Shown here one piece after another: positions 3,798 through 30,972 of a stretch of DNA of 35,491 bases. Every line of letters begins with the position of its first letter. Position 1 is the first letter of the stretch. The stretch spans positions 1 through 35,491 of the IMG/VR virus record IMGVR_UViG_2671180778_000014, one strand, 5' to 3'. The notes under the pieces were generated by a model, which was not told where the DNA came from, made no database searches, and saw nothing but the letters and a program-made list of their open reading frames with translations. This stretch comes from a virus (taxonomy: Duplodnaviria; Heunggongvirae; Uroviricota; Caudoviricetes). The position numbers and the translations under genes are program-made.

Positions 3798-3804
3798 ATT
3801 TATA
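3798..3804 (-). promoter_or_regulatory. candidate -10 element (TATAAAT) of a recurring promoter motif
   Basis: minus-strand CTTATAAATA upstream of the gene at 3762; the same motif recurs at 29978 and 30966. Confidence 0.3.
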
Positions 3805-3808
3805 AGAA

Positions 3809-4165
3809 TTAATTATTGTAGTTTTGGAAACCAGTAAGATCGCAAAATGTTTCTGTGTCATGTACCGGAGAACGATGTTCTGCCTCGTCAGAGAAAATGT
3901 TGGCTACCGGAGATTCTGCGTTAACTTCCGGTACTTCTTCAACTACTGGCTGAACTTCTTCAATGACTGGTTCCACTACCGGAGTTTCTTCTACTGGTTC
4001 CGGTTCTTTCATTGCTTCAACCAGTGACGGATCTGCCTCATCAAATACCACTTTATCTTCTGCGGTATATTTGTCTATAATGAAAAAATGGTCAGAAATA
4101 TAGCTAACGTCGCCAGCATATTCTAACAAAAAAGCGCCCACCAGAGGCGCTTTTGTTTTATCCAT
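3809..4165 (-). CDS. hypothetical Pro/Glu-rich protein (uncertain start)
   Basis: ORF with EPEPVEETPVVEPVIEEVQPVVEEVPEV low-complexity segment; 5' end overlaps a terminator hairpin, so the true start and reality are uncertain. Confidence 0.3.
   Translation of the reverse strand: MDKTKAPLVGAFLLEYAGDVSYISDHFFIIDKYTAEDKVVFDEADPSLVEAMKEPEPVEETPVVEPVIEEVQPVVEEVPEVNAESPVANIFSDEAEHRSPVHDTETFCDLTGFQNYNN
4130..4157 (-). terminator. rho-independent terminator after the endolysin gene
   Basis: minus-strand AGCGCC-tctggtg-GGCGCT followed by TTTTTTGTT. Confidence 0.5.
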
Positions 4166-4511
4166 TCCACCGTGATTTTTTTGATCTGGAATCAATATGC
4201 GTAAAGGTTTTATATTTTCCTAAGCCGTATTGAGTAGGATATTTCCCATCAAGATAAGCATGAACAATATCAGGCGAGACACCCTTGATAACAATGTCAG
4301 CCGCGCGGCCTCGAACATGATAGCTATTGGTTGCGCCGCCTACATTCTTGTTATGAGTCGGGCAACGGTTCCCACTGTTAATAATCACTGGTTTACCGAA
4401 GTGCTCTCGTACATCCTCAAGAATCACCAGTAATTCAGCGTCGATTGTATCATAATCACATTTTCCGCATTTACATTTAAATTCCTTGCGAGAAAAATGC
4501 TTACTTAACAT
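4158..4511 (-). CDS. endolysin, zinc peptidase M15-like (YcbK/DUF882-type)
   Basis: FSRKEFKCKCGKC ... NSGNRCPTHNKNVGGATNSYHVRGRAADI ... THID matches the His/Asp zinc-binding pattern of M15-type cell-wall peptidases; RBS AAGGGGG. Confidence 0.65.
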   Translation of the reverse strand: MLSKHFSRKEFKCKCGKCDYDTIDAELLVILEDVREHFGKPVIINSGNRCPTHNKNVGGATNSYHVRGRAADIVIKGVSPDIVHAYLDGKYPTQYGLGKYKTFTHIDSRSKKSRWNG

Positions 4512-4520
4512 ATTACCCCC

Positions 4521-4868
4521 TTAGATCATTTCGAAGATATAACCAATAAAGCGCATACCCTTGATATAATAAGGAGCAGTGCCTACACACACCGCGCGTG
4601 CATCACCCAGACAGTTAAAGCTATAAGGATTAACTACATCGACTTCTTGCCCTACACGAAAACGATATTTAGGACGTTTAGCCAATGTAGCGACACAAAA
4701 CACGGTCCCCTTTTCATGGTCACGGATACATTCTTTATATTGTTTATGTTTAACTCTCTTCGCCTCAAAATCATAGGTCATTGATTCTGGGCTAATGCCA
4801 TTAATAAAAATACCGGAAAGCTGATCAACCGGATAAGTAGGAAATTCAGTGAAAATATTTTTAGCCAT
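4521..4868 (-). CDS. hypothetical protein
   Basis: 115-codon ORF with GGGGG RBS; no recognisable motif. Confidence 0.5.
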   Translation of the reverse strand: MAKNIFTEFPTYPVDQLSGIFINGISPESMTYDFEAKRVKHKQYKECIRDHEKGTVFCVATLAKRPKYRFRVGQEVDVVNPYSFNCLGDARAVCVGTAPYYIKGMRFIGYIFEMI

Positions 4869-4906
4869 GTTATACCCCCATAAGATTCTATGAGGGTATT
4901 TATTGA

Positions 4907-5590
4907 TTAAACGTATTTCATGCGCGATTTAATGTGCTTATTGATGTTTTCAAGCATCATTGCTTCGTTGCTTTCCCACGATCCTAGCGTCGAATAACGA
5001 GTAGAAATTTTATCCGACTTAACGGCAACAATTCGCTTACTCTGTTTCTGTATGCGTTTCTCTAAGCGACGTTTTGCCACCGCAGATCCATTCCTAGCGC
5101 GTTTGGTTCGGGATTTCTTAGGCTTGTACTTCTTCATGATAAAAGTCCCTTCCTGGTTCTCTACCTTGATGAAGTTGCCATTTTCGATGTTACGCATCAT
5201 CTTACCGCCTTTGATGGCCTTAATGTTCCCGTGGGAGTCTAAGACCTTACCGTTGGCGATTGGCACTAGCTTATTGATTTTGCCACCATCGAAATAGTGT
5301 TTCAGATAGTCATCCTGACTGCCGATCCTCTTGTCCTTATCCCTTGCGCCCTTGATGAAGATTTGGTGTCTCGTCCCTGATCGGTTCTTGTAGTTGGTAT
5401 TACCTACAGCTTGCTGAGTCCATCGAGTAGGTCTATCAACATTCTTGTTAATCTTCTTCTGGAGTGCTCTGGAAGCAAAGATCGCCCCTTCCCCTAGTGC
5501 CCTTTCGAATGTATCGGTTGCCTTTTCAGACCATTGCCGTAACGCTTTCTTAGTCCTTAGAGCGTTTCGTTTATTGGTACTGGTTGCCAT
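4907..5590 (-). CDS. hypothetical basic protein
   Basis: 227-aa ORF rich in Lys/Arg; start ATG overlaps the stop of the upstream small gene (TAACATG). Confidence 0.5.
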   Translation of the reverse strand: MATSTNKRNALRTKKALRQWSEKATDTFERALGEGAIFASRALQKKINKNVDRPTRWTQQAVGNTNYKNRSGTRHQIFIKGARDKDKRIGSQDDYLKHYFDGGKINKLVPIANGKVLDSHGNIKAIKGGKMMRNIENGNFIKVENQEGTFIMKKYKPKKSRTKRARNGSAVAKRRLEKRIQKQSKRIVAVKSDKISTRYSTLGSWESNEAMMLENINKHIKSRMKYV

Positions 5591-5591
5591 G

Positions 5592-5762
5592 TTAGCCCCC
5601 TAATAACGAAAAGACCCCCGCCAGTGTCCTTAGCAATTGTTCATCCACGGTCATAGCCGGGAGTTCAAGCCCAAAGGACGTTAGCAGAGGTCTAATAGCT
5701 ACGTTATAAGTGAGGGCGACAATCAAGAGATAACCAAAATATTTCTTAAGTTTATTCTTCAT
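5592..5762 (-). CDS. small membrane protein (56 aa), possible holin-like
   Basis: RBS AAAGGGGTG then ATG; MKNKLKKYFGYLLIVALTYNVAIRPLL has a hydrophobic helix; translationally coupled to the downstream gene. Confidence 0.35.
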   Translation of the reverse strand: MKNKLKKYFGYLLIVALTYNVAIRPLLTSFGLELPAMTVDEQLLRTLAGVFSLLGG

Positions 5763-5780
5763 ATATTCACCCCTTTATTA

Positions 5781-6059
5781 TTATTTTTGTTTGAGTATGT
5801 CGAGAACTTGGTCAAATTTGGCGTCCATCGCAACCACTTTCTTCTCTATACCGTGTAGTGTTTGTTCCATTTGGTAAACACGTTCAGCAATCTGAGTATG
5901 GTTATTCTGCATCGTCTCAAACTTCTGGTTTAACAATGCGTCGCTGGATTCCAATTTCGACAATCTATTTTCAGTTGCTAATTGATTTCGGTGAAGTCTC
6001 CAAAGACCACCACAAATTAAGGCGATAACACCGATACCGCCATATATAATTTCAGTCAT
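5781..6059 (-). CDS. membrane-anchored coiled-coil protein (spanin- or holin-like)
   Basis: N-terminal hydrophobic segment IIYGGIGVIALICGGLW followed by a heptad-rich region; GGGGG RBS. Confidence 0.45.
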   Translation of the reverse strand: MTEIIYGGIGVIALICGGLWRLHRNQLATENRLSKLESSDALLNQKFETMQNNHTQIAERVYQMEQTLHGIEKKVVAMDAKFDQVLDILKQK

Positions 6060-6165
6060 TACGCCCCCGATATTTTTATATAGTTTAATGGCAAAATTAT
6101 TTAGATAAAAATAATCCCGCCTAACTCAAAAGAATTAAGCGGGATTAATTATTAAAATTAAATTT

Positions 6166-9100
6166 TTAAGAAACAGTAATACCCGTAGTGGCTTTTTTAG
6201 TTACCATTACAGTTAAATCACTGATCCATGTGCTAGGCGTCCAGTTGTTGATTGCGCTTGATTGCACTTCAAAGGTCAAGGTCACAGCACCTTTACCCGC
6301 TGGCATATCAATAACACCTGAGTAAAGACCAGTATTACCGCCATACGCCCTATTATACAACTCTGACCCATTCTTACGAACAATCAGGCGACATGTGTCG
6401 TAATAGGTATTATTGTTCGACCCTTCACGCGCTCGCAATCCACCAAAACTAATTGCCGGAATAACGATTTGACGATCGAACTTGTGATCATCTTCAACGC
6501 GAACAGTGACCGTACCCTGTGGATAGCCAGCATAACCATTATCAACGTTAACATCACGGTGCGGGAACTTACGACCAATCACCTTAACGAAATCACCCTT
6601 AACCTGAGTAGCTTCAAGCATACCCTTAATAACACAGCTAGAGTTAATCGTGACGTTGTTCAGAGTACCAGAATCAGCCGTGATATTACCTTTAACGGTA
6701 GCGTTCATGAACGTAGCATTACCGTTCTTGTTGATATGCCATCCGGTCGATCCGTTCCAGTTGGAAGACTGGATATAGTTACCGATTTTAGCGTTATCAA
6801 TTGCGCCATTTACAATCTTGGCGTTAGTGATTGCCCCGTCCTGAATCTTCGCGCTGTTAATTGCAGCATTGCCGATCTTAGCGGTAGTAATTGCCGCATC
6901 ATTAATCTGGGCTGTACCAATTGCAGCATTACGAATCATCGCATTATCGAGATAAACCTTGTTACCTTCGATACCAAACGGGCAAACATCGGTCCCATTC
7001 TGCGGAGCTACAGCAATTTTATCAGCCGTAAAGATGATTTTAGTCGGTTGTGCCGGATCGTTGGTTGCGCTCATGTGAATACCAGCCACACGACCATCTG
7101 CATTAACTGCCAGATTGTATTTGCTGTTAATGGTTCCTTTCAAAGCATCGATTTTTACATCTGCTTCCTGATTCACACCAGCAATCTTGCCATCCATTTC
7201 TACCCGAACTTGATCAATCTTACTTGCGCTTGCTGCCTCACTGGTTGCAATTGCTTGTTTCAGGGTTGTAGCGGAGGCGCTAACTTCTTTGGTGATATCG
7301 CCTTTCAGTTCAGCTTTAACCTGATCAATCTTAGTTGAACTTGCCTTATCACCAGAAGCAATCAGACTCTTTAAGGTATCGGCTGAGGCTTGAACAGTTT
7401 TACCCGTCTCGGTAGTGATTTGCTTATGCATTGCATCAATTTTAGCATCGGCATTAGCGCCAGCTTGCTTAATAGCATCCGCGATAGTTTCATCTAAGCG
7501 ATCTTGTAAACCGATCAGGTCTTCCAGTGCTTCTTTGTCCTGATCGTCCCAACTAATCGTAGACTTCATTTGCATGAAATACGGTTCAGACCAAACAGCA
7601 TCATCCATACCGAAAATATCGTAGTGAGCACCACGGATATAATAATCACCGTCAGCAATATCAAAGGAAGTATGGCTAACACTATTCGTGCTTACTGCCC
7701 TTGCATCTGAGAAAGTGTTATCGGTTGCATACTGGATGATTGACCCTGCATAGTCATGTTCTACGTCATCCGCCCAGCTAACAAACGCAGTATTAAAGCC
7801 ACCACGCGCACTAAAACCTTTCATTGGCTTATGCTGTGGGTTGATAGCCACTAAACGCGCTGGGGCGCTCTCTGAGTTGTTATAGCCCTTAGCCGATACT
7901 TCTACCGTAAGTTGTCGCGAAAGGCCGTTAAACTGGTTCATATCAAGTGTATAAGTCCATGATTCAGGATCGCGGGTACGGTACTGAATAGACTTACCAG
8001 CCTTGTTAGTCACCTTGATAATGTATGCTTCAAACAGGTCACTAAACTTGTTAGTTTCACCGTTGATCATCACATCTAATTGTTGCTGATTTTCCCATTC
8101 GATAATCAGATCATTACCTTCGAAAGTTCCTGGCGTGCTACCCTGATTTTTGATTCGAATAACCGGAGTCGGTAATTCATAGGTAACAGTAGGATTCTGG
8201 TTAATCAGTTCTACCCAATCAGATCTCGCGATGATACCGAAAGCACAAACTCGGTAATCATAAGAACGATCTTTTGCCAGTGCACTGACACTGAAAATTT
8301 GCTGTGAAGTCTGTCCCAGCTTAATCCAGTTAGGCGATCCACTAACACGGTAATCAATCTGGAAGCCGTAGCGGTTAAAATCTTCCGGCGCATCCCATGT
8401 TAAAGTAACGTTCTTACCATAGATTGTTTCACCAGTTGCCTTAATTCTGAAATTAGTAGGCTTCTGTACTGTCATTGAATCCGGTAAACCACTTGGTCGG
8501 TTATCTGGGTTAGCCGCATAGTTCAGGTCAGTATAAACCTGAGAATTATATTCTGTGGCGGTGATCGTCATCATCCCAGCAATACCAGAATCAATCGAGC
8601 GGTCAATTGCAGTAATACGCCAAAGTGAATTATTCAGTTTTAATTCATCATAGGTTACGCTGATAACATCCCACACCTCGGCAGTGAATGCGTCAGTAGT
8701 CATAAAGCTGATAACCTGAGTGATACGAGATTTATTTCGTTCAATGCTCGCAAGTTTATCAATCTGGGCTTTAGACTTAACAAAACGATATTCGATATCC
8801 TTAGCGATAATTCGACCATCTTGACGAATAGTAGCATCGTTTTCAGCATCAGCCGGATAACGTAGCATTTGCTCTGAATAGTCAATAGATGGTTCTTGAT
8901 ACATCGCGTTAATGGTATTGAAATAACCGTTAGTGCCACCTGTTTTCAGTGATACCTTACCCATCATGATATTGTCTTCATTGAAGGTATGCTTAACAAT
9001 ATCAGGAGCATCCAGTTTCAGGGTAATTCTTCCGAAGGATTCGAACATCACCCCGCCGAAAGTCTGCATAAGGCTAGTCAAGTTCTCTTTAAAGCTGGCG

Positions 9101-20989: not shown

Positions 20990-20993
20990 ATTA

Positions 20994-21284: not shown

Positions 21285-21314
21285 AGTTACCCCCTTTATG
21301 GAGTATTTACATAC

Positions 21315-21341
21315 AAAAAAGCCCCACCGTTAGGCAGGGCT
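21315..21341 (-). terminator. rho-independent terminator (conserved family)
   Basis: minus-strand AGCCCTGCC-taac-GGTGGGGCT followed by TTTTTTG; near-identical to the 15362 copy. Confidence 0.6.
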
Positions 21342-21349
21342 AATTATTA

Positions 21350-21475
21350 TTCTTTAGTTTTACGCTGTTTTTTAGCTGTGGCTTTCGCCTTAACCGTCTG
21401 GGATTCTTCTTCCGGTTCAGGAATCAGATTTTCTTCCCCCAAATCGGGGGAAGGTTCAGATGGTTCTACAGGAGT
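21350..21475 (-). other. in-frame post-TGA extension of the capsid gene (putative readthrough segment)
   Basis: 42 sense codons after the TGA at 21476-21478, no ATG; translates TPVEPSEPSPDLGEENLIPEPEEESQTVKAKATAKKQRKTKE; stop TAA at 21347-21349. Confidence 0.45.
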
Positions 21476-23479
21476 TCATTCAGCGGAGATGTGAAGAACT
21501 TTCAGCGCTTCCGGCTGGGTTACAACGTAATCCAGATCTACCCAGATACGCGGAACGATAGCAGACTGTGCGCGGTAGGTAGTGTCATCAATGTCAAGTT
21601 CCAGACCACCCCATTCACCGATGGTAATAGCGTCGAACGATCCCAGAACGATGTGGTCTACCGGAATAACACCAGAAGTAACTACGTCGTAACCAGCCAG
21701 TTTACCGTTTTCGATGATATAACCGGAAACACCGTTATCTTTCAGGGTAGATTCCAGTTCAGCAGCAGTTGCACCGCTCATTGCAAACTTGATCGCCTGA
21801 GCAGGAACGCCAGCGTCGGTCAGTTTAGCAATTTCTTTCAGGAAGTCTTTATAAGAGAAAGCAGCTTTCTTCTCTACGCGACCAGCATCTACCAGTTGTT
21901 TAATCACACCAGCCGGACCACGAGCATTTTCTTTGTCGGACAGAATCAGTTGTTCCAGTTTGATGCGAACAGCCTGGTTAATGTGATCAGTGATCAGGGT
22001 AGCGATGCCGGGTACGGTTTTGAGGCTAGCTCTGCTGATCGGATTCCCACCAGCAAACGTCTTAGGAGCCATTTTCACGTTTGCAAATTCAGCTTTACCT
22101 TCCGGCGCAGCACCGTTTTCATCAACGAAGCCGAAAGATTCAACGCTGGAAGCGGTCATTTTAGGAATAGCGGTCGGCGAAGTCAGACCAGACAGGACTT
22201 TCACACCAAGACGACCCAGAACGGATTCCGGCAACAGCATCGCTACATAGGAATCATTCAGCAGTTTTTCGTCGGTTACAGCGGTCAGAGTAGCTTTGGT
22301 GTTACCATCAGCAGCAGCACGCATAGCAGCAGTCGGAACGAATACAGAGCCACCGCGAGCAGCACGACCACGCTGCATAGTTGCAGTAGCAGCCATTGCA
22401 GAAAACTCGGCTTCGTGAGCACCCAGAGCTTCACCATCTACCAGAGAGCGAATTACGTTGTTCAGGTCAAAAGTTTTTTCCATTTTAGAGTCCTTAATTT
22501 GTTGTTCGTTATTACGTTGAGCATTGGTAATGTTATTTAGTGCCTTAGTGCGGAATGCTTCCGGCGTCATGTCTTTAACTGCCAATGCGCGTTTTAATTC
22601 TTCGTCGTCAATATTTAGTTCCCGCGCGATCTCGCGAATTTCTAATTCGTCTTCTTCGGAACGTTCAGCCACTTCTTCGATTTTTTCTTCTTCAATCGGA
22701 GCGGCTTCACGTTCTTCTTTTACTTCTTCTGTTTCCCGAACAGTTGAACTATCATCATCAACACTTTCAGGATGTTCAGCGTCTTTTCCGTCTTCGAGAT
22801 TTTCATTTTCTTCATTCTCTTCAACTTGGCGCTCTTGAGTTTCTTCTACTTCCGATTCTTTATTTTCTTCTACCGGAGTTTCTTCAACCTGAGCGGCTTC
22901 TTGTTCTTTGATTTCTTCGATTTGTTCTTTAGTCATATCGCGTTTAGCCTCCAAATTAACTGTGATAGTATTTAGAGAGCGATTTAAACCGACCGTATCG
23001 TCAGCAGGAACGGTAACGAAACTTAATTCGTATGGTGCCCACTTAGTAACAATCAATTGTCCTTTGGTGTAGTCGATGTGATATTCTTTAATGTCATAAC
23101 CGACAGAAATTTTTTCCATCGTACCTTCAATGACTTTATTGCGAATATCATTAGCCAAAGTGCCATGCTTAGAGAATTTAACCAGAGCACGACCTACGTT
23201 ATCCGCATCGATTCGAGCGTTACAAACGACACCAATATGATTATCGAAATTATGATTGAACAGCAACGGAGCGTTATTATTCAGACGAGACAGATCAACC
23301 GCTTCCGGTGTATGTACCAGAATTTCATCTAGTACCACCATCTCTTGATTTTGCTCATCCCAGAATTGGCGCTGATACGGCTGTTCACTGGAGAAAGCAA
23401 TTTCAAATTCGTATTGATCGTTATGCCCTTCGTTAATAACTCCACCGTAACCGTTAAGATCGCGGCGAAATTTAAGCAT
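21476..23479 (-). CDS. prohead protease - scaffold - major capsid protein fusion (HK97-fold)
   Basis: N-terminal PLLFNHNFDNHIGVV is prohead protease-like; central highly acidic coiled-coil region (scaffold/delta-like); C-terminal ~300 aa resemble an HK97-fold capsid protein; candidate internal RBS plus ATG at 22483. Confidence 0.8.
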   Translation of the reverse strand: MLKFRRDLNGYGGVINEGHNDQYEFEIAFSSEQPYQRQFWDEQNQEMVVLDEILVHTPEAVDLSRLNNNAPLLFNHNFDNHIGVVCNARIDADNVGRALVKFSKHGTLANDIRNKVIEGTMEKISVGYDIKEYHIDYTKGQLIVTKWAPYELSFVTVPADDTVGLNRSLNTITVNLEAKRDMTKEQIEEIKEQEAAQVEETPVEENKESEVEETQERQVEENEENENLEDGKDAEHPESVDDDSSTVRETEEVKEEREAAPIEEEKIEEVAERSEEDELEIREIARELNIDDEELKRALAVKDMTPEAFRTKALNNITNAQRNNEQQIKDSKMEKTFDLNNVIRSLVDGEALGAHEAEFSAMAATATMQRGRAARGGSVFVPTAAMRAAADGNTKATLTAVTDEKLLNDSYVAMLLPESVLGRLGVKVLSGLTSPTAIPKMTASSVESFGFVDENGAAPEGKAEFANVKMAPKTFAGGNPISRASLKTVPGIATLITDHINQAVRIKLEQLILSDKENARGPAGVIKQLVDAGRVEKKAAFSYKDFLKEIAKLTDAGVPAQAIKFAMSGATAAELESTLKDNGVSGYIIENGKLAGYDVVTSGVIPVDHIVLGSFDAITIGEWGGLELDIDDTTYRAQSAIVPRIWVDLDYVVTQPEALKVLHISAE

Positions 23480-23524
23480 TTAATCACCTTTAATTAATTG
23501 GGGGCATTGCGCCCCCGTTGGTTA

Positions 23525-25036
23525 TTAGGGATCGGCTGGGGAATTTTTTTCTTCACCCTCGCCATTAACGATAATATTTAGTGCGCTCTTTTCGGCTTGA
23601 ATCTCTGAGAATACTTTTTCAGGATCATCACCACGTTCAAGAATAACGGCAGTACGTGATTTAAGTCCGTTATCAATTAAAGCAATATCAGCGTTCACAT
23701 CTTTAATAACATCGACGGACTCAAAACGTGGCCTGATAATAGTAGTGTTATCGATAATATGTGGAATTGCAGTAATACGAATCGGAACAATACCACGCGC
23801 GGAATAATGGCGTAGATACGCTTCGAAAATTGGCAATACCACTGTTTCAATCAATTTGTTTTGTAGTGCTTTAACGCGGTTACGTTGAAGTAGTTCACCG
23901 AAGCGGGCTGCGCTGTAATTTATTTGGCTAGTATCACCAGTCAAGCCCTGTTTAAACACGCCAAGACCCATCGAGACACTCGTGAACATTCCATCATTGA
24001 ACGAATTGAAGTCGTCGCCACTTTGCGATGATTGAATGCTCTTGATCGTTGCCCCTTCCGGCAATTCCTGAATAGTACCAGGCGCGAAATCGTGAATTAC
24101 TTCCGGCGCTTGATATTGTTCATCCTCTTCACCAGTATCAAAATCGTCACCAGAATCTTTAGGACGCTCGATGAACGCCATGCTACTAGCTGAAATTCGT
24201 TTCTGGATCAGGACCGCTTCGCGGAATGCGTCTTGATGTGCGATATCCTTAATCACTGGCAGGAAGTCAGTCACGCCACGCAGAGATTCAGCCGCAAGTG
24301 GTTGATAATAATGGCATACTTGCGAAGCATCTACGCGATAGTTATCACCTGTGTAAGTCTGAGTCAGTAGGTTGATTTTACGAAACCAAAATGCAACAGG
24401 GCGCATTGTTTCTACGTCATACTCAATACCCTGATAGATAGCACGTTCTTTGCTTACTTCACGGTTGAGCGTCCAGTCGCACTTATCAGCAGACAGGATG
24501 GAAACATTTAACTCATTGTTTTCTTTGGTTAAAACGATGAAGCACTCACCACCCATAACGCGCTCACGTTCAGCCATCACCAGCAGTTCACGGAAGTTAA
24601 AACGACCATTGCGGGAGAAGCGTTTAGCATTCTGCGCCCACTTCCAGAAAGCATTCTCGATCTGCTTATTCAGTGCGGTATCAAGTTTGCCATTTGATTT
24701 AACGATTGATGGCTTCGGATCTAGGCCAGTGCCGACCACCATATCGGTGATGTATTGCGTGTAGCGACTGCCTACGGAAGTGTTTAAGGCCAGAGTACGA
24801 CCCTGATCATAAAGGCGCTTACCATTCGATTTGAGAGCCTTATTGAAGGTTCCTGTAATGGTATCTTGTTGAAGCGATCCATCAATGCGATCACCAACCA
24901 GTCCTAAACTACGAGTCGCCAGAGATTTCTGGTATTTTTCTATAGATTTGTCGATAAAGATTTTTTGTTGTTGCTGGCGGTGATTAGTTTTAACTGGAGT
25001 TTCTACCGCCTTATTGCGTCGAAAAAGATTAAACAT
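23525..25036 (-). CDS. portal protein
   Basis: 503 aa located between the large terminase and the capsid gene; size and synteny match lambda-type portals; RBS AAGGGGT. Confidence 0.75.
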   Translation of the reverse strand: MFNLFRRNKAVETPVKTNHRQQQQKIFIDKSIEKYQKSLATRSLGLVGDRIDGSLQQDTITGTFNKALKSNGKRLYDQGRTLALNTSVGSRYTQYITDMVVGTGLDPKPSIVKSNGKLDTALNKQIENAFWKWAQNAKRFSRNGRFNFRELLVMAERERVMGGECFIVLTKENNELNVSILSADKCDWTLNREVSKERAIYQGIEYDVETMRPVAFWFRKINLLTQTYTGDNYRVDASQVCHYYQPLAAESLRGVTDFLPVIKDIAHQDAFREAVLIQKRISASSMAFIERPKDSGDDFDTGEEDEQYQAPEVIHDFAPGTIQELPEGATIKSIQSSQSGDDFNSFNDGMFTSVSMGLGVFKQGLTGDTSQINYSAARFGELLQRNRVKALQNKLIETVVLPIFEAYLRHYSARGIVPIRITAIPHIIDNTTIIRPRFESVDVIKDVNADIALIDNGLKSRTAVILERGDDPEKVFSEIQAEKSALNIIVNGEGEEKNSPADP

Positions 25037-25046
25037 GATTTACCCC

Positions 25047-25541
25047 TTATCGCGTAAGACGTAATTTGATATTTTTAATCGGGCTAATTCCCTGTTTACG
25101 TCGTTCGGCTTGAATTAATTTTGATAACTGACGTTCATAATCGACTTTTAGAGTCTGGAGAACAGCCAATGACTCATAGGCGAAAGTATTCCCTTTCACG
25201 GTCATTTGAGATAATGCGGCTTCGTCCCCAGATAAACGAGAAAAGATGACTTGTTCCAAAATGGCGATAGTTTCCCGCAGATATTCTTTTTTGGATTGTT
25301 TGGCGAATACTGGTAAAACAGTTAATTCCTGCATTGATACCAGTTCTTCTTCCAAAGTGGTTACGATGGTATATTTACCTTCGGCTAAATCTAAGGTTTT
25401 AATCTCGTGATTAGCCGGAGTGTCATCAACCTGATAAATGATACCTTTACTATTTCCTACCTGAATTGTTACACCCTCTTCATTCGCCAGCGTGATTTTT
25501 TCGCCTTTACGAATTACTAAGGGAATTAGTTCTAAACTCAT
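25047..25541 (-). CDS. hypothetical protein (head-tail connector gpW position)
   Basis: 164-aa ORF between terminase and portal genes; RBS AAGGGGT. Confidence 0.45.
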   Translation of the reverse strand: MSLELIPLVIRKGEKITLANEEGVTIQVGNSKGIIYQVDDTPANHEIKTLDLAEGKYTIVTTLEEELVSMQELTVLPVFAKQSKKEYLRETIAILEQVIFSRLSGDEAALSQMTVKGNTFAYESLAVLQTLKVDYERQLSKLIQAERRKQGISPIKNIKLRLTR

Positions 25542-25613
25542 AATTACCCCTTATTTAATTGTTATTGGATTAACAATATTTAGGAGTAAGCCGCCCCGAA
25601 GGACGGCGAGTTA

Positions 25614-27518
25614 TTAGAACGATGTTACCCAGCTACGGCCTCTATTTGGGCGTCTGGCGATGTTTTTACGTTGTGGTCGTGTGATTGGCTTATTTTCTTC
25701 GATTTGCTCGTCAGATTGCGTTTCAGGAGCTTTTACGGGTTCTTCTGGTTCACGGTTCAAACTATCTTTGATGGCTTCGAGTTTTTCCCATGACATTTTA
25801 TTGAGTACATGGCGAGAAGCAGCATAGGAATAAGCCAGGCAGTCGAGAGCCTCGTTTCGTTGCTGACCAACTTTTACCCAACGTGTGGTATTACCCTGCC
25901 GTTTCAACTGTTCAGAAAGCAATTGCTCGCAATAGTCATCAGGAACGTCACCAATCTGGAAGACAGTGTGAGGATCTCCATCTCTCAAGTTCCGGTTAAT
26001 CATTTCGCGGATCATCGTCTTAAGGTTGTTTACGCCCAGAATTTTAAGGGTAAAACCACCTGTTCTTGTGTCTTTTACCGGAAGGATTGGAGCATCAACA
26101 TTGCTTGCGCCCTTAATGGCTGATAGGTTTTGCCACCGACTACAAAAGCGGTAGATCACTTGCGTAGCACGTCCGTTTGATGAGTCCACGAAAGCGGATA
26201 GCATCGGGATTCGTTGACCGGATCGGGTATAGAATTTAGCTTTCAGGAAGTTGTAAAGCTGGTCATATGCTGGTGATTCGTGGCGTTCGCAGTTCACATC
26301 ATAGAATGATCGGTGATCAACTACGCATATCCCTTTACGCGAGATACCCAGCAAGGTAGATTCCAGACGGTCTTTTTGCTGGTCAACTCCACCTACCAGA
26401 GCCAGAACATCATCAGGGATATTGTCTAAGCTAATATCAGTTTTCAGCGTTTCCAGTTCGTCGGCTGTGCGGTCTTCGTTAAGATCATCGAAGGTTTCAC
26501 CTAAGACAGTGTTATAGAACGTTGCCAGTGACATATTCGCGTAGCTATCAGCAAAATCCACCACACACGCACGGATAGAACTAAACGGAGACATAAGGCG
26601 GTTAGCATGAAAACCGATTACTTCCGCATTAGGTTCGGTGGCGATCCATTCTCCCTTAGCAACAGCACGTAGGCGATCCCCTTCGGTCCAGTCGGTTTCA
26701 CATTCAGGGCAACGATAAACGGCTGTGTCGGGCGAAGGCAGTGATTTACCATTAACTTGATGCCAATCAAAATGGACGTTACTCCATTCCATTACGTGTC
26801 TGTGTCCGCAATGCTGGCATGGAACATAGTATTTTCGTTTATCTGATAGCTCGAATTGTTGGTTGATCGCCCCATCTCGCGACGTTGGAGTAGAAGCAAT
26901 TACGATCCGTGCATCTTCCCCGAAAGTGGTTGCTCGTTGTTCCGCTAGCTGGATCGGGTTCCCTTCATCTGATTCATCAGCCGCATCAACTTCATCAAGA
27001 ATAATCAAAGGCAGTGTCTTACCGCGCAAGTGTGATGGACTGTTCAGCGACATGAAATACATGAATGATCCGTTACGAAGCTGAATAATCGATGAGTTGT
27101 TAACAGCATTACGGTCTGATTTGTCGGTGATCATCGCTTTTAATTCTGGCGTAGCCTCTAATACTGGCTTCACCTTACCAGCGATCCAAGAATTTAGTTC
27201 TCTAACGTTTGATTGCAACACCCCTATATTCGTAGGGTTACTGGCGATCCTGTGGAAGATAATTCCGTTAAGAATCATAGTCTTACCCAACTGCGCCGAA
27301 CATTTAAACACAATTTTTCTACGGTCTTCGGTGATCGCGTCCATCATTCCACGTTGGAAGGGATGCAATTTAATTAGAGATCCGGCTTTAACGCCATCGG
27401 TAGCCACTACGTTAGCCTCTACCCATTCGCTAGGTTTCATGGCTTTAGGCGGTCGAATTGCAGCAGAGATATTTTTAAGAATCTTTTTTAATTTAGCCTT
27501 ATTAGAAATCAGTTTCAT
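25614..27518 (-). CDS. terminase large subunit (lambda gpA family)
   Basis: 634 aa; N-terminal PSEWVEANVV ... LHPFQRGMMDA and C-terminal RNEALDCLAYSYAA match the recalled lambda gpA pattern (AVEWADANYY ... LPFQRAIMNA ... RRNEALDCFVYALAA); Walker A-like QLGKT. Confidence 0.85.
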   Translation of the reverse strand: MKLISNKAKLKKILKNISAAIRPPKAMKPSEWVEANVVATDGVKAGSLIKLHPFQRGMMDAITEDRRKIVFKCSAQLGKTMILNGIIFHRIASNPTNIGVLQSNVRELNSWIAGKVKPVLEATPELKAMITDKSDRNAVNNSSIIQLRNGSFMYFMSLNSPSHLRGKTLPLIILDEVDAADESDEGNPIQLAEQRATTFGEDARIVIASTPTSRDGAINQQFELSDKRKYYVPCQHCGHRHVMEWSNVHFDWHQVNGKSLPSPDTAVYRCPECETDWTEGDRLRAVAKGEWIATEPNAEVIGFHANRLMSPFSSIRACVVDFADSYANMSLATFYNTVLGETFDDLNEDRTADELETLKTDISLDNIPDDVLALVGGVDQQKDRLESTLLGISRKGICVVDHRSFYDVNCERHESPAYDQLYNFLKAKFYTRSGQRIPMLSAFVDSSNGRATQVIYRFCSRWQNLSAIKGASNVDAPILPVKDTRTGGFTLKILGVNNLKTMIREMINRNLRDGDPHTVFQIGDVPDDYCEQLLSEQLKRQGNTTRWVKVGQQRNEALDCLAYSYAASRHVLNKMSWEKLEAIKDSLNREPEEPVKAPETQSDEQIEENKPITRPQRKNIARRPNRGRSWVTSF

Positions 27519-27605
27519 GTAATTACCCTCATTACGAAATATGAAGGTATTTATTAAGTTGTTGATTTTTTGATAAATACGGGTATTAAGATTTAAGGGG
27601 GTTGT

Positions 27606-28211
27606 ATGCTAATTAATCAGCAACAAAGAGATGTATTAGAATTAGCCTTTTCTTGTTGTACCGATCATGAATATCGTTTGCCAGTTAAGCACCATCACAA
27701 GAAGACTGATTACACAACATCCGGCTTTAGTCGCGAGGAAGCTAAACAGATTTTAATCGAGTTGTATCGTGATCATGGGTATACCGATATTCATAACTTC
27801 TTTAAGAAGCACCGAACATCACAGACAGAGTTTAATAGAGTCCGTGAATGGTTTGATTTTGACATTAAGCGATTCTATCGAGTGGATGACGGTCCAATCT
27901 ATCGGTTGCAGTGGACACCGATTAGGGAAGTGCTTAAACAGAAGAGATTGAATCATGCCATTACACGCTATCGTAACGTGGCTTTTAAGAAAGGCTATGG
28001 TGATACAAGGGAACTATTCGTTGAACTCGCTAACGTGCGATATAGCCACTATTACAGGAATCCTAAAGAGTTCTTCGAAGTGCTGCGCAAGGTTGATATA
28101 AGTCGGGGTACATACTATTCACGGTTGAAGAAGTACGGGATTAAGGCAGAGTTCTTTATGTCGGTTGACGATGGAGAACTTTTTCCGATAAAATGTAAGT
28201 CCTCTAAATAA
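27606..28211 (+). CDS. hypothetical DNA-binding protein with C-terminal HTH
   Basis: 201 aa; C-terminal FEVLRKVDISRGTYYSRLKKYGI is HTH-like; RBS AAGGGGG; divergent from the terminase gene. Confidence 0.5.
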   Translation: MLINQQQRDVLELAFSCCTDHEYRLPVKHHHKKTDYTTSGFSREEAKQILIELYRDHGYTDIHNFFKKHRTSQTEFNRVREWFDFDIKRFYRVDDGPIYRLQWTPIREVLKQKRLNHAITRYRNVAFKKGYGDTRELFVELANVRYSHYYRNPKEFFEVLRKVDISRGTYYSRLKKYGIKAEFFMSVDDGELFPIKCKSSK

Positions 28212-28239
28212 AGGTGAACATTCACTTTAATTTGGAGAA

Positions 28240-28473
28240 ATGACTATGACTACTAAAGCTACTCGCGGTCGCCCTGCCCGTTTTAACGCTGAACAGATGG
28301 CTGATATTGCCTACGCTTACTATACAGCGGATCGCGGGAAGGAAGCGAAAGAACAGATTCTTAGTGAACATGGGATCTCAATCGCCCAATTCTATAAGAA
28401 TATGAAGAAGTTAGACATTAAATTCTATGTTCAGATCGGTGATGGTCAGATCGTAGAAGCAACAGGTTTTTGA
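28240..28473 (+). CDS. small HTH protein resembling a terminase small-subunit N-terminal DNA-binding domain
   Basis: 77 aa; TRGRPARFNAEQMADIAYAYY ... GISIAQFYKNMKK fits the GRPxK(F/Y) + HTH pattern of some small terminase N-termini (Sf6 gp1-like as recalled). Confidence 0.5.
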   Translation: MTMTTKATRGRPARFNAEQMADIAYAYYTADRGKEAKEQILSEHGISIAQFYKNMKKLDIKFYVQIGDGQIVEATGF

Positions 28474-28488
28474 GTTTTGATTCTCTTT

Positions 28489-28513
28489 GCCACTCTTCGG
28501 AGTGGCTTTTTTT
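28489..28513 (+). terminator. rho-independent terminator
   Basis: GCCACTC-ttcg-GAGTGGC hairpin followed by TTTTTTT. Confidence 0.6.
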
Positions 28514-28516
28514 ATG

Positions 28517-28544
28517 CCTATAGAAAACAAAAAAGCCCCGCACT
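28517..28544 (-). terminator. rho-independent terminator (conserved family)
   Basis: minus-strand AGCCTCGC-ctagt-GCGGGGCT followed by TTTTTTG; third copy of the AAAAAAGCCCC...GGCT module. Confidence 0.5.
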
Positions 28545-28558
28545 AGGCGAGGCTAAAA

Positions 28559-29029
28559 TCATACTTTGATTCGGACAAACTTGCATCCTAACTCATTTTC
28601 AATTCTTCGTTGACGGATCTCGTCTTGCTCTTTCTTGTACTGGTGTTCTGGTTCATCAATTTCATAAGCTATATTATTAACCGGATCATAACCATCAATT
28701 CGATAGTTTAACACCCGACACTGGCGAATCAGGTTGATACCTAAAACTTGTTCTATAGTGTTAAGAGCAATCTTTTCGGCAGTAGATAAACCAAAACGTA
28801 AGCCGTTATAGCGTTTATACATCGCATCTGCTAATTGTCCACACAGCATATAGTGACACTTTTTTCGATTTTGGGAATCTACATACACAGATTCAACAAA
28901 AGCAATTCCTGTATTTTTAGAAACTAACCTAACGTCACGCAAAACATCTTGATGTCTCTTTCCAAATTCTTTAGCCAAATCCAGAGAGCTAATCTGTTCT
29001 TTTTCTAATTGTAATGCAGCATTTCCCAT
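28559..29029 (-). CDS. Rha-type N-terminal domain protein with small C-terminal nuclease-like domain
   Basis: LAKEFGKRHQDVLRDVRLV matches the Rha regulatory domain signature; C-terminal YDPVNNIAYEIDEPEH ... KFVRIK has acidic residues compatible with an endonuclease-like fold (tentative). Confidence 0.5.
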   Translation of the reverse strand: MGNAALQLEKEQISSLDLAKEFGKRHQDVLRDVRLVSKNTGIAFVESVYVDSQNRKKCHYMLCGQLADAMYKRYNGLRFGLSTAEKIALNTIEQVLGINLIRQCRVLNYRIDGYDPVNNIAYEIDEPEHQYKKEQDEIRQRRIENELGCKFVRIKV

Positions 29030-29072
29030 AAAGTACCCCTTAAAAGCCCCTGAAATTCAGGGGCAAAAATTA

Positions 29073-29906
29073 TTACAGTCCGAAGACTTCCAGAGAGCCA
29101 GCATTCTGACGAATCAGCAAAGCAGTGTTATTAATGATTGCTCGTGAGTTATTCGGCTGTGGCAATTTCAAAGTTGCGGCCTTTTCTTCTTCAAGCAATC
29201 CGAGTTTTACGAGATGCGGGATAGCATCAGCAGTGAACTCGATCTGACCGTGTGCCGACATACGAGCGAACATATAGCCAGGAGGAAGCAGATCATAGCC
29301 TTTAGGCTTACCAGAAGCATCCAGACGACGCTCAAGAACACCAGCAGCACATAAACCTTTCAGAATCATTTGTACCTTCGTAGAGCCTCGTTTTTCGCCT
29401 AATAAGCGGCTAAGACTGTGTGCATCAATAGCTTTACGGATATGAAGATCAACTAATTGTTCTTTTTCTTGAATCAGTTGTTCGTTTGCGGCTTCTAATT
29501 CCATTGCCTCACGAATCCAATCGAGCTTAGTCATGTTTGCGTATGGGTTGACTTGCTGAGAACGCAGTTTTTCATTTTCTTCTTTCAGTCGTTTCCATTC
29601 CTGAATAACAACCATTCGACGCTTAACATCGTAACCAGTGACAAGAGTCAGAGTCATTTCTTCGTCTAGTTGATATTCGTTTTGTTCGCGTCCGTATTGG
29701 TCAAAATAGATGACGCGAAACTTCGCGTGATCTTCATAACCTAGAGCATTCAACATCTTAGTTATATCAACTTTAACTTTGTGGTGTTCTTTTCCGGTAA
29801 ATTCAGCGATCTGACGAGAAGACATGGTCAGTGGTTTGGTGTTATCAACAACCAGAGACACGGAAGCAGTTTTAACAGCAGTATTCATAGTAGTAACAGT
29901 ATTCAT
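29073..29906 (-). CDS. antirepressor-type regulator (Rha N-terminal domain + KilAC-like C-terminal domain)
   Basis: SSRQIAEFTGKEHHKVKVDITKMLNAL ... VIYFDQYGREQNEYQL is Rha-like; C-terminal LSRLLGEKRGSTKVQMILKGLCAAGVLERR ... GYMF is KilAC/Ant-like. Confidence 0.7.
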   Translation of the reverse strand: MNTVTTMNTAVKTASVSLVVDNTKPLTMSSRQIAEFTGKEHHKVKVDITKMLNALGYEDHAKFRVIYFDQYGREQNEYQLDEEMTLTLVTGYDVKRRMVVIQEWKRLKEENEKLRSQQVNPYANMTKLDWIREAMELEAANEQLIQEKEQLVDLHIRKAIDAHSLSRLLGEKRGSTKVQMILKGLCAAGVLERRLDASGKPKGYDLLPPGYMFARMSAHGQIEFTADAIPHLVKLGLLEEEKAATLKLPQPNNSRAIINNTALLIRQNAGSLEVFGL

Positions 29907-29977
29907 AGTAAAAATTCCCCTTAAACGGTTTAGTGATTTGGTCCTCCTAGTTCCGGCATCACTACCGGAACAATTTT

Positions 29978-29984
29978 ATTTATA
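29978..29984 (-). promoter_or_regulatory. candidate -10 element (TATAAAT) of recurring promoter motif
   Basis: minus-strand CTCTTATAAATAAA about 70 nt upstream of the start at 29906. Confidence 0.3.
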
Positions 29985-29998
29985 AGAGCTATTTCTTA

Positions 29999-30331
29999 TT
30001 ACCAATCGATTTCTACCTGATCTTCTTCGTAGTAAGGAATCGCATACTCATAACGCCAGTTTTCGATGATTTCACGTTCTTCATTGGTAAGAAGGTGATT
30101 GCTAACTGGAGTCGCATTATGATTACCAGCTTCGAATTGCTCGCGAACTTCCAGCATTGCATGAATACCAGTTAAAGACATAAGGTCAAACGGGATATGC
30201 ATACTACGTGAGATAGGTTCACGGGAAACGCCCCAATCATTTTCTACATGGCGAGCTTTAACCAAAACGGTTTTACCAATGATTTCTACAGTCCAGTCAT
30301 ACAAGGATTTAGTGATGGTAAATTCTTTCAT
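29999..30331 (-). CDS. hypothetical protein (early-type, downstream of a strong promoter)
   Basis: 110-aa ORF; strong sigma70-like promoter about 50 nt upstream. Confidence 0.5.
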   Translation of the reverse strand: MKEFTITKSLYDWTVEIIGKTVLVKARHVENDWGVSREPISRSMHIPFDLMSLTGIHAMLEVREQFEAGNHNATPVSNHLLTNEEREIIENWRYEYAIPYYEEDQVEIDW

Positions 30332-30387
30332 GTTACATCCTCTTTACAAATCTAGGTCAAATAGGTTCAAAATTGTCAAGTGCGATA

Positions 30388-30416
30388 ATCATAAAAAAGT
30401 CAAAAAATTTTGTCAA
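30388..30416 (-). promoter_or_regulatory. sigma70-type promoter (TTGACA - 17 nt - TATGAT)
   Basis: minus-strand TTGACA at 30416-30411, 17-nt AT-rich spacer, TATGAT at 30393-30388; further TTGACA boxes nearby. Confidence 0.5.
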
Positions 30417-30451
30417 TACCCCTTGACAAGATGCCAAAGGGTTGACCTAAC

Positions 30452-30919
30452 TTACAGCATATCTAAGCCTTCATCGTAACCGTAGAAGCTATTGTGAGAA
30501 GAAAAACAGATTGGTGCGTAGTCTTCGTCTTCCTCGTCTTCTTCATCTTGTTCTGGGGCTTCCTGAGCGGTTTCTTTGCCGTAGTTAAACATTGCTTCAT
30601 CCAGTTCATAGACAGTAACGAAGCTACCTAAATCAATGTCACCTGACCGGACTTCGAAAGGCAGATCATCACGAACAATAATTGCTGGTAGATTCTGGTA
30701 TTTCAGGCGATCTTCATCGGTGAAGCAGTTAACAACGATGGTAGGACGTTTATTTCTTCCGAAAACATACCATGCACTAGAGAAATGGGATTCATCGGTA
30801 TTGTAAAGGATGTTATAACCACGTTCACGGAACATCTTCATTAACTTGTCATTGTGAAAGCTATCTGCATCCAGACCCAGAAGGATAAAAGGAGTAGTGG
30901 TAGTCATTTTGTGGTTCAT
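30452..30919 (-). CDS. hypothetical acidic protein
   Basis: ATG at 30919 preceded by GAGGA with 8-nt spacer; C-terminal EQDEEDEEDEDY acidic tail. Confidence 0.5.
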   Translation of the reverse strand: MNHKMTTTTPFILLGLDADSFHNDKLMKMFRERGYNILYNTDESHFSSAWYVFGRNKRPTIVVNCFTDEDRLKYQNLPAIIVRDDLPFEVRSGDIDLGSFVTVYELDEAMFNYGKETAQEAPEQDEEDEEDEDYAPICFSSHNSFYGYDEGLDML

Positions 30920-30965
30920 AGTGGTAATCCTCAAAAAGAAAGTTAATCAAAGTAATTCTGATATT

Positions 30966-30972
30966 ATTTATA
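30966..30972 (-). promoter_or_regulatory. candidate -10 element (TATAAAT) of recurring promoter motif
   Basis: minus-strand CTCTTATAAATAATA about 50 nt upstream of the start at 30919. Confidence 0.3.

What the first reader, a model, noticed from the sequence alone, without database searches (positions are those of the whole stretch)
3798..30972. Recurring promoter-like motif CTCTTATAAATAA upstream of three minus-strand accessory genes
The same extended -10-like element (TATAAAT with conserved flanks) occurs about 40-70 nt upstream of the endonuclease gene (3762), the antirepressor gene (29906) and the acidic protein gene (30919), with related plus-strand copies at about 32113 and 35265. Together with the canonical TTGACA-17-TATGAT (30388-30416) and TTGACA-17-TATACT (31814-31842) promoters, this points to host-RNAP-driven early transcription units.
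Basis: seen in the sequence. Interest (0 to 1): 0.35.

Follow-up and report, generated by a model that had tools for sequence, protein, structure and literature searches.

The report
Prophage-wide T4-late-like promoter motif
The repeated motif is real. Its core, nATAAATA, has the same sequence as the phage T4 late promoter and sits in front of almost every transcription unit of this E. coli prophage, including the packaging and lysis genes, yet no T4-type sigma factor was detected in the prophage.

Summary
The window is almost a whole ~36 kb temperate siphovirus prophage of E. coli. It carries a serine integrase and is inserted in hicB.

**Observation.**
- ATAAATA occurs 14 times, all in the 12% of the window that is non-coding (2.9 expected).
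- It occurs zero times in 31 kb of coding DNA (4.4–8.4 expected).
- Twelve of the 14 copies lie 26–81 nt upstream of a co-oriented start codon (P≈3e-8).
- The other two copies are each followed by an intrinsic terminator, so they look like small-RNA units.

**Scope.** The motif also precedes TerL, TerS and a lysis-region gene, not only accessory genes. It is kept at the same positions in E. coli, Salmonella and Proteus relatives, and in a 30–45%-identical relative, although the flanks diverge.

**Features.** There is no −35 element and no TGn. No reading register gives both −11A and −7T. Three leaders have a hairpin that sequesters the Shine-Dalgarno sequence and starts at the motif, as in T4 genes e and I-TevI.

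**Second class.** Two canonical σ70 promoters with operator-like palindromes form a separate class.

**Reading.** The best reading is a two-tier cascade: σ70 early promoters, then −35-independent nATAAATA promoters that need an unidentified factor. No gp55 homologue was detected. Mapping of transcription start sites is still needed.

The parts
658..665 (+). TATAAATA, 34 nt before the ATG at 700 (81-aa secreted-protein-like cargo gene)
   Evidence: The same site is present in L020-L023.
3797..3804 (-). TATAAATA, 34 nt before the endonuclease ATG at 3762.
   Evidence: Relatives carry ATAAATA before a GIY-YIG nuclease at the same place.
3761..3799 (-). Leader hairpin whose 5' arm starts inside the motif. 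Its 3' arm covers part of the Shine-Dalgarno sequence and abuts the ATG.
   Evidence: -14.9 kcal/mol, z = -4.8, 0 of 200 shuffles as stable.
4897..4904 (-). AATAAATA, 28 nt before the ATG at 4868 (115-aa gene just upstream of the endolysin)
   Evidence: Invariant in L020-L023.
4872..4899 (-). Hairpin that sequesters the Shine-Dalgarno sequence (GGGGG lies in the 3' arm). The 5' arm begins in the last bases of the motif.
   Evidence: -15.3 kcal/mol, z = -4.2.
11649..11656 (-). GATAAATA in the loop of a terminator-like hairpin, 27 nt before the ATG at 11621 (distal tail protein). This is the least convincing copy.
   Evidence: Conserved in L020-L023.
27548..27555 (-). AATAAATA, 29 nt before the large terminase ATG at 27518, at the head of the structural operon
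   Evidence: Present in all 26 relatives scanned with the TerL-leader pattern, in Salmonella L027 and in Proteus L029.
27524..27549 (-). TerL leader hairpin CCTTCAT/ATGAGGG, which sequesters the Shine-Dalgarno sequence
   Evidence: -10.5 kcal/mol, z = -3.4. The stem is invariant and the loop differs in L027. The hairpin is not kept in Proteus.
27572..27579 (+). GATAAATA, 26 nt before the ATG at 27606 (201-aa two-HTH protein). It lies back-to-back with the TerL copy, 16 bp apart.
29977..29984 (-). TATAAATA (exact 13-mer), 70 nt before the Rha-family gene ATG at 29906. A hairpin follows at 29950-29971.
   Evidence: In relatives the site reads TATAAATA or CATAAATA.
30965..30972 (-). TATAAATA (exact 13-mer), 45 nt before the ATG at 30919 (155-aa acidic protein)
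   Evidence: TTATAAATA is invariant in 17 loci whose flanks are 73-92% identical (excluding L001, the window's own contig).
31913..31920 (+). TATAAATA with no ORF downstream. A terminator-like hairpin plus T-run follows at about 31980-32008, so this is a candidate ~85-nt RNA.
32115..32122 (+). TATAAATA, 64 nt before the ATG at 32187 (60-aa HTH protein). A small GAAA-loop hairpin plus T-run lies in the leader.
32478..32485 (-). TATAAATA on the strand opposite the 333-aa gene, within that gene's Shine-Dalgarno-to-ATG spacer. The terminator at 32441-32410 follows, so this is a candidate ~65-nt antisense RNA.
   Evidence: The motif is kept despite indels next to it.
34439..34446 (-). TATAAATA just after the small terminase stop codon and about 80 nt before small membrane ORFs
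   Evidence: Four relatives have TACTAAATA or TACTAAACA instead.
35038..35045 (-). GATAAATA, 31 nt before the probable small terminase start at 35006
35267..35274 (+). TATAAATA, 33 nt before the ATG at 35308 (right-end cargo position, degenerate in this window). The half-site TTGTCAAG lies just upstream.
30388..30416 (-). Canonical σ70 promoter TTGACA-17-TATGAT (P_left), embedded in TTGTCAA/TTGACAA repeats
   Evidence: Conserved in 23 relatives.
31814..31842 (+). Canonical σ70 promoter TTGACA-17-TATACT (P_right). Its -35 lies inside the palindrome TTGACAnnTGTCAA.
   Evidence: Conserved in 13 relatives.

Best explanation
nATAAATA is the -10-type core of a second, -35-independent promoter class that heads nearly every transcription unit of this prophage: regulators, cargo genes, two small RNAs, a lysis-region gene, TerS and the TerL structural operon.

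The prophage also has two canonical σ70 promoters, P_left and P_right, with operator-like TTGACAA/TTGTCAA palindromes. These would fire first with unmodified host RNA polymerase.

The nATAAATA promoters would then be switched on by a factor that changes how RNA polymerase reads the -10 region. That factor is most likely phage-encoded and made from the early transcripts. The only DNA-binding candidates found are the paralogous HTH plus beta-hairpin proteins of 201, 77 and 60 aa.

At three genes (endonuclease, the 115-aa lysis-region gene and TerL) the motif sits at the start of the 5' arm of a hairpin that sequesters the Shine-Dalgarno sequence. Read-through transcripts would therefore be poorly translated, while transcripts that start about 6 nt past the motif would be translatable.

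Shown: the motif statistics, its placement, its conservation, the absence of -35/TGn/-7T, and the stability of the hairpins. Inferred: the promoter activity itself, the start-site position, the temporal order, and the existence and identity of the factor.
For: **Enrichment and avoidance.** All 14 copies are intergenic (2.9 expected; 0 of 300 shuffles reach 14). None is in coding DNA (8.4 expected by dinucleotide shuffles, 0 of 300 reach zero; 4.4 by synonymous-codon shuffles, 5 of 500 reach zero). It is the top intergenic 8-mer.

**Placement.** Twelve of 14 copies have a co-oriented start codon 16-85 nt downstream, against 17% for random intergenic positions (P = 3e-8). The shortest gaps, 26-29 nt, leave room only for a -10-type position. 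The two orphan copies are each followed by a terminator 60-90 nt downstream, and this is conserved.

**Conservation.**
- The core is invariant while the flanks vary and carry indels.
- Four complete E. coli prophages have 11-13 copies each, and 47 of 48 are intergenic.
- Orthologous sites are kept in Salmonella and Proteus.
- A 30-45%-identical relative carries GTTATAAATAA after terminators and before genes.

**Not σ70-like.** There is no -35 above background. No position outside the core is conserved.

**Same sequence as T4 and cyanophage late promoters** (PMC2984593, PMC3014915).

**Hairpins.** z = -3.4 to -4.8. The arrangement matches T4 genes e and I-TevI (PMC3014915).

**A separate canonical class.** The two σ70 promoters are conserved together with their palindromes.
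Against: - There are no transcription-start data.
- No sigma-like or gp55-like protein was detected:
  - PHROGs, Pfam and NCBIfam give no hit.
  - tblastn and hhalign against T4 gp55 are negative.
  - The 155-aa protein is a generic alpha/beta fold.
- Cargo genes that might be expected to be expressed in the lysogen also carry the motif. This is awkward if a lytic-cycle factor is required.
- The hairpin stems show no covariation, and the TerL hairpin is not kept in Proteus.
- Coding avoidance is only p≈0.01 under the stricter null. It is not seen in the AT-rich Proteus relative or the DCP80 relative, where 4 of 14 and 7 of 18 copies lie in annotated coding DNA.
Confidence: 0.55

Rival explanations
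1. These are ordinary host σ70 promoters. TATAAA acts as a slightly off-consensus -10 hexamer in AT-rich intergenic DNA and is read by unmodified Eσ70, possibly helped by the T-rich tract just upstream.
For: - TATAAA matches TATAAT at 5 of 6 positions.
- Many sites have a T-run 2-6 nt upstream.
- Cargo genes plausibly expressed in lysogens carry the motif.
- No phage sigma factor was detected.
Against: - All 14 sites would have A at the near-invariant -7T position. No alternative register gives both -11A and -7T.
- There is no -35 above background (2.71 against 2.52), and only 1 of 14 sites has TGn.
- The 7-mer is invariant across genera. A tolerant σ70 -10 element would be expected to drift toward TATAAT, and it never does.
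- The same genome keeps two perfect-consensus σ70 promoters, which suggests a distinct class.
Confidence: 0.25
2. The motifs really are T4-type late promoters read by gp55-RNA polymerase of a superinfecting T4-like phage. The prophage, or part of it, is wired to be transcribed when a T-even-type phage reaches its late phase, either to escape or to defend.
For: - The motif is identical to the gp55 target (PMC2984593, PMC3014915), and no gp55 of the prophage's own was detected.
- There is repeated gene exchange with RB49-like phages:
  - tail fibre about 80% nt identical;
  - the 128-aa ORF is 47% identical to RB49p190;
  - a homing-endonuclease-like gene;
  - a UvsY fragment in L021.
- GenBank record PQ671644 co-assembles a relative of this prophage with a T4-like phage.
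Against: - A complete temperate phage with integrase, operators and early promoters is expected to be autonomous.
- TerL and TerS would then have no promoter in a normal induction, unless read-through from P_left covers them.
- From established T4 biology, T-even phages block transcription of cytosine DNA and degrade host DNA.
- Tail-fibre exchange between T-even and lambdoid phages is common.
- The co-assembly is anecdotal.
Confidence: 0.08
3. The motif is not a promoter. It is either an RNA-level signal in 5' leaders (translational enhancer or RNase site) or a binding site for a DNA-binding protein such as H-NS or a phage regulator.
For: - It is AU-rich and strand-specific in leaders.
- It resembles part of the H-NS high-affinity site TCGATAAATT (from memory, not tested).
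- It is often adjacent to hairpins.
Against: - The two back-to-back divergent copies are only 16 bp apart at TerL and the 201-aa gene, and no other promoter could put both into leaders.
- The orphan copies are followed by terminators and no ORF.
- The distance to the start codon varies from 26 to 81 nt, which does not fit a fixed translational element.
- Avoidance on both strands of coding DNA argues for a DNA-level signal.
Confidence: 0.07

Closest known systems
T4-type late promoters: TATAAATA in T4, KVP40 and RB49, and NATAAATA in cyanomyoviruses, read by gp55 with gp33 and gp45
   Same: - Identical 8-bp core, with the first base variable.
- No -35 element.
- Sits 26-81 nt before start codons, including those of structural and lysis genes.
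- Also found in front of homing-endonuclease-like genes.
   Different: - The host element is a ~36 kb temperate siphovirus with a serine integrase.
- No gp55, gp33 or gp45 homologue was detected.
- The motif also heads regulator and cargo genes, not only late genes.
- Start sites are unmapped.
T4 gene e (lysozyme) and I-TevI: late promoter embedded in the 5' strand of a hairpin that sequesters the ribosome-binding site (PMC3014915)
   Same: At 3797-3804, 4897-4904 and 27548-27555 the motif abuts or overlaps the 5' arm of a stable hairpin whose 3' arm holds the Shine-Dalgarno sequence. One of these genes is an endonuclease and one lies next to the endolysin.
   Different: There is no covariation support. 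The TerL hairpin is absent in the Proteus relative. Whether read-through transcripts exist is unknown.
Phage rV5 late-gene motif TggTAaAAtA (PMC3606486)
   Same: A T4-late-like -10 motif upstream of late genes in a coliphage that has no gp55, gp33 or gp45 homologues.
   Different: rV5 is a large lytic myovirus. Its motif is looser and restricted to late genes, and there is no protein relatedness to this prophage.
σ70 promoters of the -10-only or extended -10 type
   Same: A/T-rich hexamer at about -10, with little dependence on -35.
   Different: TGn is absent, -7T is absent, and the conserved unit is 7-8 bp long and extends 2 bp beyond the hexamer.

Membership tests
T4-type (gp55-dependent) late promoter | 8-bp TATAAATA/NATAAATA element as the only conserved promoter sequence | tested here: met
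   There are 14 copies of nATAAATA. No other position from -46 to +45 is conserved.
T4-type (gp55-dependent) late promoter | No -35 element required or conserved | tested here: met
   The best -35 match averages 2.71 of 6, against 2.52 for random intergenic positions.
T4-type (gp55-dependent) late promoter | The genome encodes the late sigma gp55, together with gp33 and the gp45 clamp | tested here: not met
T4-type (gp55-dependent) late promoter | Transcription starts about 6-7 nt downstream of the element, in the late phase of infection | not testable with these tools
   This needs 5'-end mapping.
σ70 housekeeping promoter | -10 hexamer with -11A and -7T | tested here: not met
   No register of nATAAATAn gives both bases. 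The base after the motif is T in 1 of 14 sites.
σ70 housekeeping promoter | -35 TTGACA at 16-18 bp, or TGn extended -10 | tested here: not met
   Two of 14 sites reach 4 of 6, equal to background. TGn is present only at 31914. The consensus scan lists none of the sites.
   30416-30388(-) and 31814-31842(+) each match 11 of 12 positions and are conserved.
T4 e / I-TevI type translational hairpin control | Stable hairpin pairing the Shine-Dalgarno sequence, with the late promoter in or abutting the 5' arm | tested here: met
   Met at three sites, with z = -3.4 to -4.8.
T4 e / I-TevI type translational hairpin control | Structure maintained by selection (covariation) and shown to block translation of read-through transcripts | tested here: inconclusive
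   The stems are invariant in relatives, so they give no information. The TerL hairpin is lost in Proteus.

The most novel reading that the evidence does not exclude
This prophage lineage has adopted the T4 late-promoter code without carrying gp55. Its transcription units, from integrase-side cargo to terminase and virion genes, would be switched on by the gp55-RNA polymerase of a superinfecting T4-like phage. It visibly exchanges genes with such phages, for example RB49-type phages that lack cytosine modification. The prophage could thereby escape from, or sabotage, a cell already lost to a T-even-type phage.

A less exotic novel reading, at roughly 0.35-0.4, is that the lineage encodes a sequence-unrelated -10-reading factor that converged on the same 8-mer as gp55.
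Probability: 0.08. Interest if true: 0.85.

Novelty: new variant of a known kind. Interest (0 to 1): 0.5.

Why it matters
If start sites confirm it, a widespread enterobacterial prophage lineage runs almost its whole programme from the minimal promoter thought to be the signature of T4-like late transcription. The lineage is present in about 1% of complete E. coli genomes and also in Salmonella and Proteus. It does this without the T4 machinery.

That points to one of two things: an undiscovered factor that redirects E. coli RNA polymerase to a -35-less TATAAATA element, or transcriptional cross-talk between temperate and T-even-type phages. Either can be tested directly with available lysogens.

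For annotation, the 7-mer alone marks transcription-unit boundaries in these prophages and flags two unannotated small RNAs.

Tried and rejected
- **Extended 13-mer as the unit.** Rejected. There are only 2 exact copies, and the flanks are not conserved among sites.
- **Chance AT-richness.** Rejected by intergenic-only shuffles and by comparison with all A/T-only 7-mers.
- **CTAAATA, which replaces ATAAATA in some relatives, as a full member of the motif.** Weak. Four co-oriented intergenic copies lie in the late operon, but 8 copies lie in coding DNA.
- **AAGGGGTA repeat.** This is simply the Shine-Dalgarno context of the structural genes.
- **Rfam.** No hit at gathering thresholds.
- **Search for a sigma or gp55-like protein.**
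  - PHROGs, Pfam and NCBIfam give nothing.
  - tblastn and hhalign with T4 gp55 give nothing.
- **Rha proteins as the essential factor.** Unlikely, because the Proteus relative lacks them but keeps the motif.
- **The 110-aa gene.** It is variable among relatives, so it is not a core factor.
- **Close isolated phage relatives.** None found by megablast. The best TerL match, DCP80, turned out to be a chimeric record, but its first ~30 kb is a useful distant relative.
- **Literature.** No description of this prophage family or of TATAAATA promoters in temperate coliphages was found.


Full report
**Context**

The window is nearly a complete temperate siphovirus prophage.
- It has a large serine recombinase (996-2690, +).
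- A long minus-strand block runs from the large terminase (27518) through portal, capsid-protease fusion, tail, tail fibres and lysis genes to an endonuclease (2764-3762).
- A 7-kb regulatory region follows. It contains Rha-family proteins, several unknown small proteins, a 1.2-kb non-coding stretch and the small terminase.
- The identical contig and close relatives sit in E. coli chromosomes, inserted in hicB or ycdX.
- The family is present in 58 of 5426 complete E. coli genomes at 80-98% nt identity and in 16 IMG/VR contigs. More distant members occur in Salmonella and Proteus.
- No isolated phage is close. The only nucleotide match is a tail-fibre segment about 80% identical to RB49-like phages.

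**Checking the observation**

- The 13-mer CTCTTATAAATAA is exact at 29976-29988(-) and 30964-30976(-). The third cited copy (3796-3808) has two mismatches, and at that stringency the count is only marginally above chance (6 against 1.95).
- The informative unit is shorter. TATAAATA occurs 9 times (2.7 expected) and ATAAATA 14 times.
- All 14 copies lie in the 4.3 kb of non-coding DNA. Intergenic shuffles give 2.9, and 0 of 300 reach 14.
- None lies in 31.2 kb of coding DNA on either strand. Dinucleotide shuffles give 8.4, and 0 of 300 reach zero. Under a stricter null that permutes synonymous codons, the expectation is 4.4 and 5 of 500 reach zero.
- TATAAATA is the commonest 8-mer of the non-coding DNA.

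**Placement**

- Twelve of the 14 copies point at a start codon 26-81 nt downstream. Only 17% of random intergenic position/strand combinations do so (P = 3e-8).
They are:
  - a secreted-protein-like cargo gene (700);
  - the endonuclease (3762);
  - a 115-aa gene next to the endolysin (4868);
  - a tail gene (11621);
  - the large terminase at the head of the structural operon (27518);
  - the divergent 201-aa gene (27606);
  - the Rha gene (29906);
  - the acidic 155-aa gene (30919);
  - a 60-aa HTH gene (32187);
  - small membrane ORFs (~34357);
  - the small terminase (35006);
  - the right-end cargo position (35308).
- The two orphan copies (31913+, 32485-) are each followed 60-90 nt later by an intrinsic terminator, and both the motif and the terminator are conserved. 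They look like small-RNA units. One of them is antisense to the leader of the 333-aa gene.

**Conservation**

- At orthologous sites in relatives the core is invariant although the flanks differ and carry indels. At 30972, for example, 17 loci are 73-92% identical around an unchanged TTATAAATA.
- Four complete E. coli prophages have 11-13 copies each, and 47 of 48 are intergenic. This includes copies in front of cargo genes absent from the window.
- A Salmonella relative and a Proteus relative (GC 37%, no Rha gene) keep the motif before the TerL, 201-aa, acidic-protein and 60-aa genes and downstream of TerS. The Proteus relative also keeps it before TerS.
- The first ~30 kb of GenBank PQ671644 is a syntenic relative at only 30-45% protein identity. 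The record is otherwise a scrambled T4-like assembly. This segment carries GTTATAAATAA after terminators and before genes.
- Occasional natural variants are CATAAATA and TACTAAATA.

**What kind of signal**

- The shortest gaps between motif and ATG are 26-29 nt, and they include the Shine-Dalgarno sequence. That leaves room only for a -10-type position.
- Nothing else is conserved from -46 to +45.
- The best -35 match equals background (2.71 against 2.52). TGn occurs once.
- No register of nATAAATAn gives both -11A and -7T, the two bases σ70 depends on most. That dependence is established knowledge and was not tested here.
- The consensus scan lists none of the sites, while it scores the two canonical promoters at 11 of 12.
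- The sequence is identical to the -35-independent late promoter of T4-like phages, TATAAATA, or NATAAATA in cyanophages (PMC2984593, PMC3014915).
- Three leaders (endonuclease, the 115-aa gene and TerL) have a stable hairpin whose 5' arm starts in or right after the motif and whose 3' arm holds the Shine-Dalgarno sequence (z = -3.4 to -4.8). This is the arrangement described for T4 lysozyme and I-TevI, where only transcripts from the embedded late promoter are translated (PMC3014915). The stems are invariant in relatives, so there is no covariation test. The TerL hairpin is not kept in Proteus.

**Two promoter classes**

P_left (30416-30388, -) and P_right (31814-31842, +) are near-consensus σ70 promoters. 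They are conserved in 13-23 relatives and embedded in TTGACAA/TTGTCAA palindromes that look like operators.

I read this as a cascade. Repressor-controlled σ70 promoters fire first. The nATAAATA class follows and needs altered -10 recognition.

**The missing factor**

- No ORF matches sigma, gp55, gp33 or any other transcription-factor family beyond Rha in PHROGs, Pfam or NCBIfam.
- T4 gp55 finds nothing by tblastn or hhalign.
- It is paralogous to the 77-aa and 60-aa proteins.
- The acidic 155-aa protein is a generic alpha/beta fold with a disordered tail.
- Rha is dispensable in the Proteus relative.
- The factor is therefore inferred, not found. Host σ70 alone remains a live rival. Recognition by gp55 of a superinfecting T4-like phage is a lower-probability rival. 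It is suggested by the motif identity and by repeated gene sharing with RB49-like phages.

**Verdict**

It is a lineage-wide, T4-late-like, -35-independent promoter-type signal, not an early accessory-gene signal. As a kind it is known, but the setting is new: a temperate siphovirus with no detectable gp55. The literature library holds no description of it. Everything about activity, timing and the trans-acting factor still needs 5'-end mapping and transcription assays.

Noticed in passing
window 30973-32186 (repeats at 31505-31617 and at 31232/31306/31471/31593; also 35110, 33705, 33723): A 1.2-kb non-coding region holds eight CCTACAC(T) iterons, an AT-rich stretch and four GAAAGGGATT repeats, with further copies near the small terminase and at the end of the 80-aa gene. 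It looks like an origin or a packaging/regulatory array. The prophage has no recognisable replication gene.
   Followed up: partly
window 31913-32008 (+) and 32485-32410 (-): There are two candidate small RNAs, each made of a TATAAATA copy followed by a conserved intrinsic terminator. The second is antisense to the leader of the 333-aa coiled-coil gene. Neither matches Rfam.
   Followed up: partly
window 30380-30450, 31810-31830, 35245-35256: TTGACAA/TTGTCAA inverted repeats overlap the -35 regions of both canonical promoters, and a half-site lies just upstream of the right-end TATAAATA. These are probable operators of an unidentified repressor.
   Followed up: partly
window 27606-28211, 28240-28473, 32187-32369: Three paralogous proteins are built from a tri-helical HTH plus beta-hairpin module, and the 201-aa protein has two copies of it. 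The family is restricted to these prophages in E. coli, Salmonella and Proteus and has no Pfam, PHROG or NCBIfam assignment.
   Followed up: partly
window 16114-18801, 1-387, 2764-3762; L021 7718-7885: Several genes are shared with RB49-like (Krischvirus) and other lytic coliphages. The gp37-like tail fibre is about 80% nt identical. A 128-aa ORF is 47% aa identical to RB49p190, an early gene of unknown function. There is a homing-endonuclease-like gene, and one relative has a UvsY-annotated fragment.
   Followed up: partly
L031-L034 (GenBank PQ671644, 'Escherichia phage DCP80'): The record looks like a chimeric assembly. It has three rIIA copies and scrambled, duplicated T4-like fragments. 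Its first ~30 kb is a non-T4 segment syntenic with this prophage's late region at 30-45% aa identity.
   Followed up: partly
window, structural operon start sites (e.g. 14118, 16001, 20589, 25048, 25552): Structural genes share a ribosome-binding context, AAGGGGTAAT followed by 2-4 nt and ATG. Several accessory genes instead use TTGAGGATT..ACTATG and begin with ATGAATACT. This suggests different origins for the two gene sets.
   Followed up: no
L019-L023 flanks; window right end: Closely related prophages use two different attachment sites, inside hicB and inside ycdX, with diverged serine recombinases. Each insertion splits the target gene.
   Followed up: no
L023 8266-8313: A gene inserted in the lysis cassette of one relative has ATAAATA followed directly by a full terminator-like hairpin plus T-run, before its Shine-Dalgarno sequence. 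The leader of the 60-aa gene (window 32123-32150) is similar. A promoter followed by a leader terminator may indicate attenuation or antitermination control.
   Followed up: no
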